Shown: piece after piece, positions 35,721-37,134 of the stretch | How positions within the stretch are numbered: the first letter of the stretch is position 1 | How the letters are laid out: each line of letters opens with the position of its first letter | Origin: a virus | DNA: 37,134 bases | Virus genome (UHGV): UHGV-1374865 | Reading direction: 5' to 3' (one strand) | Made by a program: the position numbers and the translations under genes | Notes under the pieces: model-generated | Databases searched by the model: none | What the model saw: only the letters and a program-made list of their open reading frames with translations | Told to the model about the DNA's origin: nothing

Positions 35721-36188
35721 ATGGCAAAAGGTAAATATCAAGAGTGGCTAGAGCCGGAAGGCTTGCTGAAGATAGAGGGATGGGCGAGAGATGGTCTGAC
35801 GGATGAGCAGATTGCAGATAATATCGGGATTTCCAGAAGCACATTAAATAGCTGGAAAGACAAGTATTCGGACATTTCGGACACCCTAAAAAGAGGAAAA
35901 GAGGTTGTTGATCGTCAAGTCGAGAATGCTCTGCTAAAACGTGCGCTTGGATATGAGTACACGGAAACGACCAGAGAATACATACCGGAACTCGATGAGA
36001 TGAAAACTACGAAAAAGGTCACAAAGCAAGTAGCGCCGGACACTACAGCCCAGATCTTCTGGTTGAAGAACCGGAAACCGGATAAATGGAGAGATAAGCA
36101 GGAATATGAAGATAGGACAGCGATTGAGAAGCTGGATGAAATCTTGAAAGGATTGCATGACAATGCAGCTAAGCAAAAAGCAGAATGA
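35721..36188 (+). CDS. terS: Small terminase subunit with an N-terminal HTH.
   Basis: AAAGGTGGTGAG RBS. LTDEQIADNIGISRSTLNSWK HTH. ~155 aa. Its 3' end overlaps the terL start. Confidence 0.75.
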   Translation: MAKGKYQEWLEPEGLLKIEGWARDGLTDEQIADNIGISRSTLNSWKDKYSDISDTLKRGKEVVDRQVENALLKRALGYEYTETTREYIPELDEMKTTKKVTKQVAPDTTAQIFWLKNRKPDKWRDKQEYEDRTAIEKLDEILKGLHDNAAKQKAE

Positions 36189-37134
36189 GTACATAATTAA
36201 CGCTACGCACAGATGGAATATTAAATCCGGTGCGGTACGTTCCGGAAAGTCTTTTGTAGATACTGCTTATATTGTTCCGAAAAGAATCCGAGATAGAGCT
36301 GGACTCCCCGGATTAAATGTAATCATGGGAGTCTCTAAAGAATCTATCGAGAGAAACGTACTCCAACCGATGAGAGAAATCTATACCAGTGATCTGATCG
36401 GGAACATTAACAATCGGAATGTTGCCAGAGTATGCGGCGAGGATGTCTATTGTCTCGGTGCGGAAAAGGTCAGTCAAGTTGCAAAGATACAGGGAGCATC
36501 CATTAAGTATTGTTACGGCGATGAGATTGCAAAATGGAACAAAGAAGTCTTCCAGATGCTTAAATCCCGTCTCGATAAGACATACTCCTGCTTTGATGGA
36601 GCTTGCAACCCGGAGCATCCAACGCATTGGCTCAAAGAGTTCATTGACAATGTAGAGTTGGACATCTATCTCCAAAAGTACACCATATTCGATAATCCAT
36701 TTCTGGATCCAGAATTTGTTAAGCAACTCTGCAAGGAATATGAGGGTACAATCTATTATGACCGCCTCATCCTTGGCTTTTGGAAACGAGCAGATGGGGC
36801 AATTTATAAGCGGTTTGCTGATAATCCGGAATCATTTAGATGCGAGATTGTGGATGAGTTCTCTCCAGACTCAGAGTATAAGCAGTTCCGAAAGGAAGAT
36901 ATTACATCAATCGAGATCGGTTTGGACTTCGGTGGTAATCAATCTGGTCACTCTTTCGTTGCCAGAGGATATACGGATAATTACAGGGATGTGATTGCCT
37001 TAAAATCCAAAAGGGTCATGGCGAAAGATGAAAATGAGGACATTGACAGTAATAGATTGAACGAGCTGTTTTGTGAGTTTGTGCAGGAAGTGATAGACGA
37101 CTACTCAGTGTGTGCGAAAAGAGGTGATTATGCG
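36157..37134 (+). CDS. terL: Large terminase subunit, N-terminal ATPase part. The ORF is open at the window end and continues in frame at position 1.
   Basis: Frame 1. Walker A GAVRSGKS and Walker B-like IKYCYGDE. The ORF track missed it because no stop occurs before the window end. Confidence 0.85.
   Translation, partial: MTMQLSKKQNEYIINATHRWNIKSGAVRSGKSFVDTAYIVPKRIRDRAGLPGLNVIMGVSKESIERNVLQPMREIYTSDLIGNINNRNVARVCGEDVYCLGAEKVSQVAKIQGASIKYCYGDEIAKWNKEVFQMLKSRLDKTYSCFDGACNPEHPTHWLKEFIDNVELDIYLQKYTIFDNPFLDPEFVKQLCKEYEGTIYYDRLILGFWKRADGAIYKRFADNPESFRCEIVDEFSPDSEYKQFRKEDITSIEIGLDFGGNQSGHSFVARGYTDNYRDVIALKSKRVMAKDENEDIDSNRLNELFCEFVQEVIDDYSVCAKRGDYA

What the first reader, a model, noticed from the sequence alone, without database searches (positions are those of the whole stretch)
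36157..37134. Window is a circularly closed phage genome: terL is split across the window ends and joins in frame
The last 978 bp encode the ATPase half of a PBSX-type large terminase (Walker A GAVRSGKS) with no stop before base 37134. The first 357 bp encode the matching C-terminal nuclease-like half, in frame from base 1. 37134 is divisible by 3 and both pieces are frame 1, so joining end to start gives one uninterrupted ~442-aa terL. No host genes are present anywhere in the window. This argues that the window is a whole, circularly permuted contig, either an episomal/circular replicon or a terminally redundant headful genome assembled as a circle, rather than a chromosomal prophage slice. 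Adjacent sequence is therefore the window itself.
Basis: partly seen in the sequence, partly recalled or inferred. Interest (0 to 1): 0.55.

Follow-up and report, generated by a model that had tools for sequence, protein, structure and literature searches.

The report
Complete circular temperate phage genome
The window is a whole, circularly closed 37.1-kb genome of a temperate Mediterraneibacter (Ruminococcus) gnavus phage that was simply cut open inside its large-terminase gene, which is an ordinary consequence of how circular assemblies are written out.

Summary
Bases 36163-37134 plus 1-357 form one uninterrupted 442-aa large terminase (terL; 444 aa from the upstream ATG at 36157). Three independent assemblies from other samples read straight through the window's end/start at 99.995-100% identity. 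The cultured relative RG-TP1 is contiguous there too. Assemblies cut at different points tile the whole circle.

This is not a chromosomal prophage slice: the window carries an intact attP (20726-20779, core GAA 20752-20754) beside a 510-aa large serine integrase, and no host DNA. But the phage is clearly built to integrate. The identical integrase and attP arms occur in M. gnavus chromosomal contigs, where they split the spore-coat gene cotJC in frame. So the window most likely represents the excised, replicating or packaged form of an integrating phage.

A plasmid-like episome is unlikely: no partition genes and no plasmid-database match. Headful packaging is plausible but weakly supported.

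This is an ordinary feature and a new member of a known phage group. Interest is low.

The parts
1..37134 (+). Complete circular map of a temperate siphovirus, linearised arbitrarily inside terL.
   Evidence: Tiled at 99.98-100% identity by independent contigs cut at other points: L026 (27484->11900), L029 (25983->10357), L022 (9660-26789), L023/L009 (15514-32513).. Collinear circular permutation of RG-TP1.
36163..37134 (+). terL 5' segment: codons 1-324 of 442 (an alternative in-frame ATG lies at 36157). It holds Walker A GAVRSGKS, the whole ATPase domain and the first part of the C-terminal domain.
   Evidence: The gene call on the 100%-identical scaffold L026 maps to window 36163->357.
1..357 (+). 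terL 3' segment: codons 325-442 plus the TGA stop at 355-357.
   Evidence: The TIGR01547 alignment runs through the junction to residue 431. The exact joined protein is on record as one gene.
35721..36188 (+). terS (155 aa), overlapping the terL start by 26 nt.
   Evidence: PHROG 309 terminase small subunit, E = 1e-69. The exact protein lies next to a terL gene in all 8 contigs shown (442 aa in six, 410/413 aa in two), several of them 200 kb to 3.1 Mb. Weak PF16677 GP3_package hit in the precomputed tables.
350..1900 (+). Portal protein (516 aa), overlapping the terL end by 8 nt.
   Evidence: PHROG 533 portal, E = 2e-117. The exact protein is found only on contigs of 20-50 kb.
20726..20779 (.). 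attP: 14-bp perfect inverted arms (20726-20739 ATTAGTTGCATCTT; 20766-20779 AAGATGCAACTAAT) around a 26-bp spacer. The 3-bp core GAA shared with attB is at 20752-20754, at the centre.
   Evidence: Breakpoints mapped by comparing the window with integrated copies on the integrase side (L002-L008) and the endolysin side (L018/L020/L024). Coordinates.
20801..22333 (-). Large serine recombinase (integrase), 510 aa.
   Evidence: Pfam Resolvase + Recombinase + Zn_ribbon_recom, all above cutoff. PHROG 95 integrase, E = 2e-86. The exact protein is found abutting cotJC'-cotJB-cotJA in contigs up to 239 kb.
19660..20637 (+). Endolysin (Amidase_2), the gene on the other side of attP. It is the right-end gene of the integrated form.
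   Evidence: The exact protein is found abutting the 'cotJC 3' part plus M. gnavus genes in contigs up to 224 kb.
23673..24056 (-). CI-like HTH repressor of the lysogeny module.
   Evidence: Pfam HTH_19; PHROG 8 and PHROG 4.
29871..31739 (+). DUF927-type primase/helicase (622 aa). This intact gene spans the ends of the RG-TP1 GenBank record.
   Evidence: PHROG 8841, E = 8e-199. Window 27197-31132 matches RG-TP1 32097-36030 and window 30992-31733 matches RG-TP1 1-742. RG-TP1 has an exact 141-bp terminal repeat.

Best explanation
The window is the complete circular map, about 37.1 kb, of a temperate siphovirus of Mediterraneibacter (Ruminococcus) gnavus related to RG-TP1. The assembler or database opened the circle at an arbitrary base inside terL, so the gene appears as a 5' piece at the window's end and a 3' piece at its start.

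The DNA behind the assembly was in the non-integrated attP configuration.

Shown:
- End-to-start contiguity.
- An intact attP.
- No host DNA in the window.
- The same integrase, attP arms and lysis cassette integrated inside cotJC of M. gnavus in other samples.

Inferred life cycle:
1. The large serine integrase recombines attP (core GAA at 20752-20754) with attB inside cotJC.
2. On induction, the integrase plus an unidentified directionality factor excises a circle.
3. The circle replicates into concatemers using the Sak4-like, ERCC4 and primase/helicase module.
4. TerS and TerL package the DNA, probably by the headful mechanism, giving circularly permuted, terminally redundant virion DNA.

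Any of these forms (excised circle, concatemer, permuted virion DNA) assembles as a circle.
For: - Junction. The pieces join in frame into a 442/444-aa terL, and the TIGR01547 match runs across the join in one stretch. The joined protein is 96.6% identical over 100% of its length, in one piece, to RG-TP1 terL. The exact protein is recorded as one gene.
- Independent assemblies. L026, L029 and L030, from three other samples, hold the junction 42-mer contiguously at 99.995-100% identity.
- Whole circle. It is tiled by contigs cut at different places. Their lengths fit 37134 + 55, 37134 - 180 + 55 and 37134 + 180 + 55.
- RG-TP1. Window base 37134 and base 1 map to adjacent RG-TP1 bases 7375 and 7376, and the window spans RG-TP1's own 141-bp-overlapped ends.
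- attP and integration. The attP is intact. Breakpoints mapped from both sides share only GAA. The joined host flanks read DIGTEELAHMEM in frame, as in the intact cotJC of L027. Flanking host proteins are exact M. gnavus proteins. One 123-kb contig carries both junctions about 40.5 kb apart.
- Gene content. Every gene is phage-type or of unknown function.
- Packaging. The nearest characterised terL relative, phiCD38-2 (33% identity over 97% of the length), is listed as a headful packager (PMC8026635).
Against: - No read-level evidence is available, and the window itself carries no terminal overlap. Its closure is therefore inferred from other assemblies rather than from its own assembly graph.
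- This exact genotype (exact portal and terL) was seen only on stand-alone contigs of about 37 kb, apart from one 1.7-kb fragment, and never integrated. Integration competence is inferred from the shared integrase/attP module on related but non-identical prophages.
- The headful inference rests on remote similarity (23-34% identity) and on a weak P22-gp3-like terS hit.
- The copy number of the 36-bp tandem repeat at 26527-26788 differs between assemblies. The true length may therefore differ from 37,134 by multiples of 36 bp.
Confidence: 0.9

Rival explanations
1. Stable extrachromosomal (plasmid-like) prophage: the circle is the lysogenic form, maintained as an episome, as in C. difficile phage phiCD38-2.
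For: - This exact genotype was found only on stand-alone contigs of about 37 kb in the attP configuration (apart from one 1.7-kb fragment), and none of those contigs breaks at attP.
- The nearest characterised terL relative, phiCD38-2, is a proven plasmid prophage (PMC8026635).
Against: - No ParA, ParB, ParM, TubZ or plasmid Rep domain was found in any ORF, either in the precomputed Pfam tables of the 100%-identical contigs or in direct scans. PMC8026635 reports that proven plasmid prophages typically carry a partition system.
- The window has a complete large serine integrase and an attP identical to those of copies integrated in M. gnavus cotJC.
- No similar record exists among 72,556 plasmids.
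- PMC8026635 warns that a circular contig alone does not prove a plasmid state.
Confidence: 0.07
2. cos-type phage: the virion DNA has fixed cohesive ends, and the circle arises from annealed or ligated ends or from replicative forms, not from headful permutation.
For: Sequence alone cannot tell cos from pac. Circular assemblies also arise for cos phages. No terminus analysis of RG-TP1 or its relatives was found in the papers read.
Against: - The independent contigs end at four different places: terL, a tail gene at 15514, and twice inside the tandem repeat. None ends near terS.
- The terL family relatives include phiCD38-2, listed as headful, and phages I recall as pac-type (TP-J34, ALQ13.2). 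That recollection is from my own knowledge and is unverified.
- The terS has a weak P22-gp3-like hit.
Confidence: 0.2
3. Chromosomal prophage slice, or false circularisation (a chimeric join or repeat-driven closure at the window ends).
For: The window has no terminal overlap of its own to document closure. Two related scaffolds end in a tandem repeat, which could mimic an overlap.
Against: - The window's ends lie in unique terL sequence, not in the repeat.
- Three other samples give identical DNA across the junction.
- The attP is intact and no host gene is present.
- NODE_72, cut in a tail gene, reads through terL, attP and the repeat in one contig.
Confidence: 0.01

Closest known systems
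Ruminococcus phage RG-TP1 (PQ571303.1), a temperate phage induced from M. gnavus; Cluster D of R. gnavus phages in PMC13435783
   Same: The gene order is collinear as a circular permutation. 63% of the window aligns at 70-95% nucleotide identity, and terL is 96.6% identical at the protein level. RG-TP1 is also an arbitrarily cut circular assembly, with an exact 141-bp terminal overlap in the primase gene.
   Different: The tape measure, distal tail/fibre region, lysis cassette, integrase/attP region and several early genes differ (gaps). Only about 190 bp next to the integrase gene aligns between the window and RG-TP1. The window also has a tRNA-Asn and a 504-aa variable ORF.
Sporulation-gene intervening prophages with large serine recombinases (SPbeta in spsM with SprA; skin in sigK). 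cotJC is listed as a recurrent target (Abe et al. 2013, as cited in bioRxiv 10.1101/2021.11.22.469490).
   Same: A large serine integrase is present. The attB lies inside the coding sequence of a sporulation gene. Precise excision would restore the reading frame, DIGTEELAHMEM.
   Different: Nothing here shows sporulation-regulated excision. The host and target differ (M. gnavus cotJC). The element is a 37-kb fully equipped siphovirus. No directionality factor was identified.
Clostridium difficile phage phiCD38-2 (NC_015568), a plasmid prophage and headful packager (PMC8026635, Table 1)
   Same: It is the nearest characterised terL relative (33% identity, 97% coverage). It is a siphovirus of about 40 kb infecting a gut Firmicute.
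   Different: phiCD38-2 has ParA/ParB partition genes and only a Xer-like and a small serine recombinase. The window has no partition genes and carries a large serine integrase with a mapped attP.
Circular (terminal-repeat-trimmed) assemblies of circularly permuted phages in general
   Same: The cut point is arbitrary, a gene is split across the record ends, and the two pieces join in frame.
   Different: Nothing of substance. The terminal overlap has already been removed from this window.

Membership tests
Large terminase, Terminase_6 / PBSX-type (TerL) | N-terminal P-loop ATPase domain with a Walker A motif | tested here: met
   GAVRSGKS at residues 25-32. Pfam PF03237 Terminase_6N scores 46 bits against a cutoff of 22, over residues 25-220. 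ATPase region aligns to D6E large terminase 5OE8, E = 8e-11.
Large terminase, Terminase_6 / PBSX-type (TerL) | Reaches the curated NCBIfam TIGR01547 (PBSX family terL, equivalog) cutoff | tested here: not met
   93.3 bits against a cutoff of 105.05, although the alignment is full length (residues 21-431 on profile 4-390 of 396). It is PBSX-like, not a strict equivalog by NCBI's threshold. JGI does name the identical protein 'PBSX family phage terminase large subunit'.
Large terminase, Terminase_6 / PBSX-type (TerL) | C-terminal RNase-H-like nuclease domain with catalytic acidic residues | tested here: inconclusive
   The region is covered by the TIGR01547 alignment. There is no Pfam C-terminal terminase hit at E <= 0.01, and the alignment to the 5OE8 nuclease region is not significant. 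No structure was predicted.
Large terminase, Terminase_6 / PBSX-type (TerL) | Gene context terS - terL - portal | tested here: met
   terS at 35721-36188 and portal at 350-1900, both overlapping terL.
Complete circular phage genome assembly | End-to-start contiguity confirmed by independent sequence | tested here: met
   L026, L029, L030 and RG-TP1.
Complete circular phage genome assembly | Terminal direct repeat (assembler overlap) in the contig itself | tested here: not met
   The window has no terminal repeat of 8-400 bp, presumably because it was trimmed. Sister contigs have lengths consistent with a 55-bp overlap, and RG-TP1 has a 141-bp overlap.
Complete circular phage genome assembly | Read pairs or assembly graph closing the circle | not testable with these tools
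   No reads are available.
Temperate phage integrating by a large serine recombinase | Resolvase catalytic domain + Recombinase domain + zinc-ribbon domain in a protein of about 450-700 aa | tested here: met
   510 aa; PF00239, PF07508 and PF13408, all above cutoff.
Temperate phage integrating by a large serine recombinase | Short attP with inverted-repeat arms around a central crossover; attL and attR share only a few bases with attP | tested here: met
   14-bp perfect arms, a 26-bp spacer and a central GAA. Both hybrid junctions were mapped.
Temperate phage integrating by a large serine recombinase | This very genotype observed integrated | tested here: not met
   The exact portal and terL occur only on contigs of about 37 kb in attP form, apart from one 1.7-kb fragment. 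The integrated copies share the integrase, attP arms and lysis cassette but have other replication or tail modules.
Temperate phage integrating by a large serine recombinase | Recombination directionality factor | not tested
   No candidate was sought.
Headful (pac) packaging phage | TerL clusters with experimentally headful terminases | tested here: inconclusive
   The best characterised relative, phiCD38-2 (33% identity), is listed as headful. All other characterised hits are at 23-34% identity. No phylogeny was built.
Headful (pac) packaging phage | Terminally redundant, circularly permuted virion DNA | not testable with these tools
   This needs virion DNA reads or restriction analysis.
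Plasmid prophage (phage-plasmid) | Partition system (ParA/ParB, ParM or TubZ) and/or plasmid replication initiator | tested here: not met
   None found in direct Pfam/PHROG scans or in the precomputed Pfam tables of the identical contigs. No match among plasmid records.

The most novel reading that the evidence does not exclude
The most novel reading not excluded is that this phage family acts as a regulated intervening element in M. gnavus. When integrated, it splits the spore-coat Mn-catalase gene cotJC inside its conserved DIGTEELAHMEM motif. Excision by the serine integrase, for example in the sporulating mother cell, would rebuild cotJC, as SPbeta does for spsM. The stand-alone 37-kb circles that recur in gut metagenomes would then partly reflect this switch rather than lytic growth alone.
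Probability: 0.2. Interest if true: 0.45.

Novelty: new member of a known kind. Interest (0 to 1): 0.12.

Why it matters
Practically, the window can be treated as a complete genome. There is no missing flanking sequence, terL is intact once the ends are joined, and annotation pipelines should rotate the record, for example to start at terS. The result also shows that this M. gnavus phage was present in several gut samples mainly in non-integrated form.

The side result is of modest interest for the biology of a gut species linked to inflammatory bowel disease: a serine-integrase attP that targets the coding sequence of cotJC. The general phenomenon, prophages splitting sporulation genes with cotJC among the known targets, is already described.

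Tried and rejected
- I reached the same information through the cluster look-up and P0121.
- **Pattern scans empty.** Scans for the 42-nt junction found nothing in IMG/VR or the JGI metagenomes. This is not evidence against closure, because those collections simply do not hold this phage. The attP 40-mer found only a 4-kb IMG/VR contig, whereas ENA and Logan records do hold the junction.
- **No terminus data in the literature.** The papers read on RG-TP1 and other R. gnavus phages report no terminus or packaging analysis and do not mention cotJ. The mBio CRISPR paper gave nothing on phiCD38-2 packaging.
- **Cultured relatives lack the module.** phiRg507T2_3 carries a 384-aa integrase instead of the window's 510-aa serine recombinase, and phiRgPS6, the phage whose integration was mapped, uses an intergenic 21-bp att site.
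- **GC skew uninformative.** It rises monotonically across the window because nearly all genes are on one strand.
- **Structure prediction not run.** The only sequences allowed for an alignment were at least 94% identical, so the model would have been poor, and the question was already settled by sequence.
- **Rejected readings.** Prophage slice and false circularisation were considered and rejected (see the rivals).
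Full report
**1. The observation**

- Bases 36157-37134 translate in frame 1 without a stop and contain the Walker A motif GAVRSGKS.
- Bases 1-357 are open from base 1 and end at a TGA at 355-357.
- The window length is a multiple of 3. The concatenated ORF is 444 aa, or 442 aa from the second ATG at 36163.
- The window has no terminal direct repeat of 8-400 bp.

**2. Is the joined ORF one real gene?**

- The joined protein matches Pfam Terminase_6N at residues 25-220 (46 bits against a cutoff of 22).
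- It matches NCBIfam TIGR01547, the PBSX-family terL model, in a single stretch: residues 21-431 on profile positions 4-390 of 396. That stretch runs across the junction at residue 326/327. The score of 93.3 bits is below the curated 105.05.
- The ATPase region aligns to the solved D6E large terminase 5OE8 (E = 8e-11).
- tblastn gives 96.6% identity over 100% of the query, in one piece, to the annotated terL of Ruminococcus phage RG-TP1. Full-length single-piece matches extend down to 30-43% identity in other Firmicute phages.
- The protein database holds hundreds of 442-aa relatives at 94-97% identity. Some sit on contigs of 0.1-3.6 Mb, including a named M. gnavus genome.
- The exact 442-aa joined sequence is itself on record as one called gene. 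JGI names it "PBSX family phage terminase large subunit".

**3. DNA-level closure**

- blastn of the window against RG-TP1 shows a collinear circular permutation. Window 34507-37132 matches RG 4734-7373 and window 1-1698 matches RG 7376-9073. Window bases 37134 and 1 therefore correspond to adjacent RG-TP1 bases 7375 and 7376, with no gap or duplication.
- The reverse also holds. The window's intact primase/helicase gene reads across RG-TP1's record ends, and RG-TP1 has an exact 141-bp terminal repeat. Each record closes the other.
- L026 (ENA scaffold_41, 37,369 bp) is 100% identical, with 0 mismatches and 0 gaps, over 21,551 bp to window 27484->37134->1->11900. Gene callers place a 442-aa terL on it at exactly window 36163->357, and that protein is identical to my joined ORF.
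- L029 (NODE_72, 37,009 bp, cut inside a tail gene) matches at 99.995%. L030 (a 1.7-kb Logan contig from a third sample) matches at 100%. Both contain the 42-nt junction sequence uninterrupted.
- L022 (scaffold_48, 37,189 bp) is 100% identical to window 9660-26789. L023/L009 (NODE_72) cover 15514-32513. Together these arcs tile the whole circle from assemblies cut at different points.
- The contig lengths equal 37134 + 55, 37134 - 180 + 55 and 37134 + 180 + 55. This fits a 55-bp assembler overlap plus gain or loss of five units of a 36-bp tandem repeat.

**4. Not a prophage slice, but an integrating phage**

- ORF 20801-22333 (minus strand) is a 510-aa large serine recombinase with Resolvase, Recombinase and Zn_ribbon_recom domains. 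It also matches PHROG 95, integrase.
- Its exact sequence occurs in two configurations:
  - In L009/NODE_72 it sits next to the endolysin, as in the window.
  - In L002-L008, on contigs up to 239 kb, it sits next to a 72-aa Mn-catalase (CotJC) fragment followed by cotJB and cotJA.
- Base-by-base comparison puts the phage/host breakpoint 49 bp past the integrase stop.
- The exact endolysin (19660-20637) likewise occurs either beside the integrase (L022, L023) or beside a 139-aa Mn-catalase fragment followed by host genes (L018-L021, L024).
- The two breakpoints overlap only in GAA, at window 20752-20754. This core lies at the centre of a 26-bp spacer between perfect 14-bp inverted arms at 20726-20739 and 20766-20779. 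That is the typical architecture of a serine-integrase attP.
- Joining the two host flanks gives GAT ATC GGC ACG GAG GAA CTG GCC CAT ATG GAA ATG, which translates as DIGTEELAHMEM. The same 32-mer lies inside an intact 201-codon Mn-catalase ORF in a Lachnospiraceae genome (L027).
- Host proteins on both sides of the integrated copies are exact M. gnavus proteins: an ABC-F ATPase and asparagine synthase.
- One 123-kb contig (k141_14600) carries both junctions about 40.5 kb apart.
- The window therefore carries an intact attP with phage DNA on both sides. It is the non-integrated form of a phage whose integration module targets cotJC.

**5. Gene content**

- L026, L029 and L022 are identical to the window, so their precomputed Pfam tables apply to it directly. 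They list:
  - terS, Terminase_6N, Phage_min_cap2 and Phage_scaffold
  - DUF6751, DUF6673 and Phage_Gp15
  - Sipho_tail, Prophage_tail, Flg_new and holin
  - DUF3800, DUF6275, Amidase_2, the recombinase and DUF5067
  - an HTH repressor, Rha/ANT, AAA_24, ERCC4, a DnaG zinc ribbon, DUF927 and YopX
- My own scans add a GIY-YIG nuclease and a YdcK beta-solenoid repeat protein.
- No housekeeping gene and no ParA, ParB, ParM, TubZ or plasmid Rep domain was found.
- The last 24 kb of the window (13135-37134) matches nothing among 72,556 plasmid records. In the phage collection it matches only RG-TP1, the six cultured R. gnavus ATCC 29149 phages and three unannotated human-faecal 'Bacteriophage sp.' records.

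**6. Which physical form?**

Sequence alone cannot decide.

- Arguments against a stable episome:
  - There is no partition system.
  - A complete integrase/attP module is present.
  - There is no plasmid relative.
  - PMC8026635 notes that proven plasmid prophages typically have partition systems, and that a circular contig does not prove a plasmid state.
- The DNA was mostly non-integrated in the sampled communities. The exact genotype was seen only on stand-alone contigs of about 37 kb, apart from one 1.7-kb fragment, and none of those contigs breaks at attP. This is an inference from how assemblers behave.
- Evidence for headful packaging is weak:
  - The nearest characterised terL relative, phiCD38-2 (33% identity), is listed as headful in PMC8026635.
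  - The terS has a weak P22-gp3-like hit.
  - The contig end points are scattered rather than fixed near terS.
- I put headful packaging at about 0.6-0.7 and a cos mechanism at about 0.2.

**7. Comparison with what is known**

- The phage belongs to the RG-TP1-like group of M. gnavus temperate siphoviruses. This is Cluster D in PMC13435783.
- It shares 63% of its length with RG-TP1 at 70-95% identity.
- Its integrase/attP region, lysis cassette, tape measure and distal-tail/fibre regions differ from RG-TP1's. The cultured phiRg507T2_3 carries a shorter 384-aa integrase, and phiRgPS6, the only one of that set whose integration was mapped, uses an intergenic 21-bp att site.
- Prophages that split sporulation genes through serine integrases are well known (SPbeta/spsM, skin/sigK). 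cotJC is already listed among recurrent targets.
- None of the three R. gnavus phage papers I searched mentions cotJ. I did not search further.

**8. Verdict**

Three corrections apply:
  - The likely start codon is 36163.
  - The cut lies inside the C-terminal domain, not between the ATPase and nuclease halves.
  - The phage is an integrating temperate phage whose excised or replicating form is the most natural source of the circle.
- The split terL is a by-product of linearising a circular assembly, so interest is low.
- The most novel reading not excluded is regulated reconstitution of cotJC in M. gnavus. Nothing here tests it.

Noticed in passing
window 20726-20779 (attP); L002-L008, L018-L021, L024, L027: The serine-integrase attP targets the coding sequence of the spore-coat Mn-catalase gene cotJC of M. 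gnavus. It splits the gene inside the conserved DIGTEELAHMEM motif, and precise excision would restore the frame. The same integrase/attP/lysis cassette is linked to at least three different replication modules in integrated copies (DnaB-type, PolA-type, RusA/replisome-organiser type), which points to mosaic exchange.
   Followed up: yes
window 26527-26788, inside ORF 26384-27022 (+): A tandem repeat of 18/36-bp period (7.3 copies of the 36-bp unit) encodes a hexapeptide [G/N][D/G]A[W/K/R/Q]V[F/Y/H] repeat, matching Pfam YdcK beta-solenoid. Otherwise identical genomes differ here by +/-180 bp (five units, in frame), and two metaSPAdes scaffolds end inside it. The copy number in the window is therefore uncertain. 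It lies just upstream of the replication module, so an iteron or origin role is conceivable but untested.
   Followed up: partly
window 5320-5383 (+): An Rfam GP20-b RNA motif (RF03003, 44.9 bits against a gathering score of 36.2) sits immediately upstream of the scaffold protein gene (5405-5959, Phage_scaffold, formerly GP20). This is the expected context for that cis-regulatory motif.
   Followed up: no
window 35483-35557 (+), within the ~600-bp non-coding gap 35117-35720 upstream of terS: A phage-encoded tRNA-Asn (GTT) was found by both ARAGORN and Rfam. It lies between a sigma-70-region-4-like late regulator gene (34709-35116) and terS. The rest of the gap, which could hold a late promoter or a pac site, was not analysed.
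   Followed up: partly
L001 (RG-TP1, PQ571303.1) 1-141 and 35890-36030: The GenBank record of RG-TP1 is labelled linear but has an exact 141-bp terminal duplication that cuts its primase/helicase gene. Its gp1 (14-748) is the C-terminal fragment of the gene that is intact in the window (29871-31739). The true unit length of RG-TP1 would be 35,889 bp.
   Followed up: yes
window 18269-19033 (+) and 22513-23076 (-): Two likely moron genes. One is a DUF3800 protein inserted between the holin and endolysin. The other is a DUF5067 protein with a lipoprotein-like signal sequence next to the integrase, on the lysogeny strand, so it is a possible superinfection-exclusion or surface factor.
   Followed up: no
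window 3354-4868 (+): A 504-aa ORF of unknown function lies between the head-morphogenesis genes. Only its two ends align with RG-TP1, and its length varies widely among relatives that share the same terS (165+250, 409, 417, 500, 511 and 534 aa in L010-L017). It is a hypervariable insert in the head module.
   Followed up: partly
window 34025-34438 (+): A GIY-YIG nuclease-domain ORF, possibly a homing endonuclease, lies in a stretch (33195-34507) that is absent from RG-TP1.
   Followed up: no
L012 and L014 (10443-11675 / 10443-11684): Some prophages with a terS identical to the window's carry a shorter terL (410 or 413 aa) and a different portal. This suggests a recombination breakpoint inside or just after terL.
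   Followed up: no
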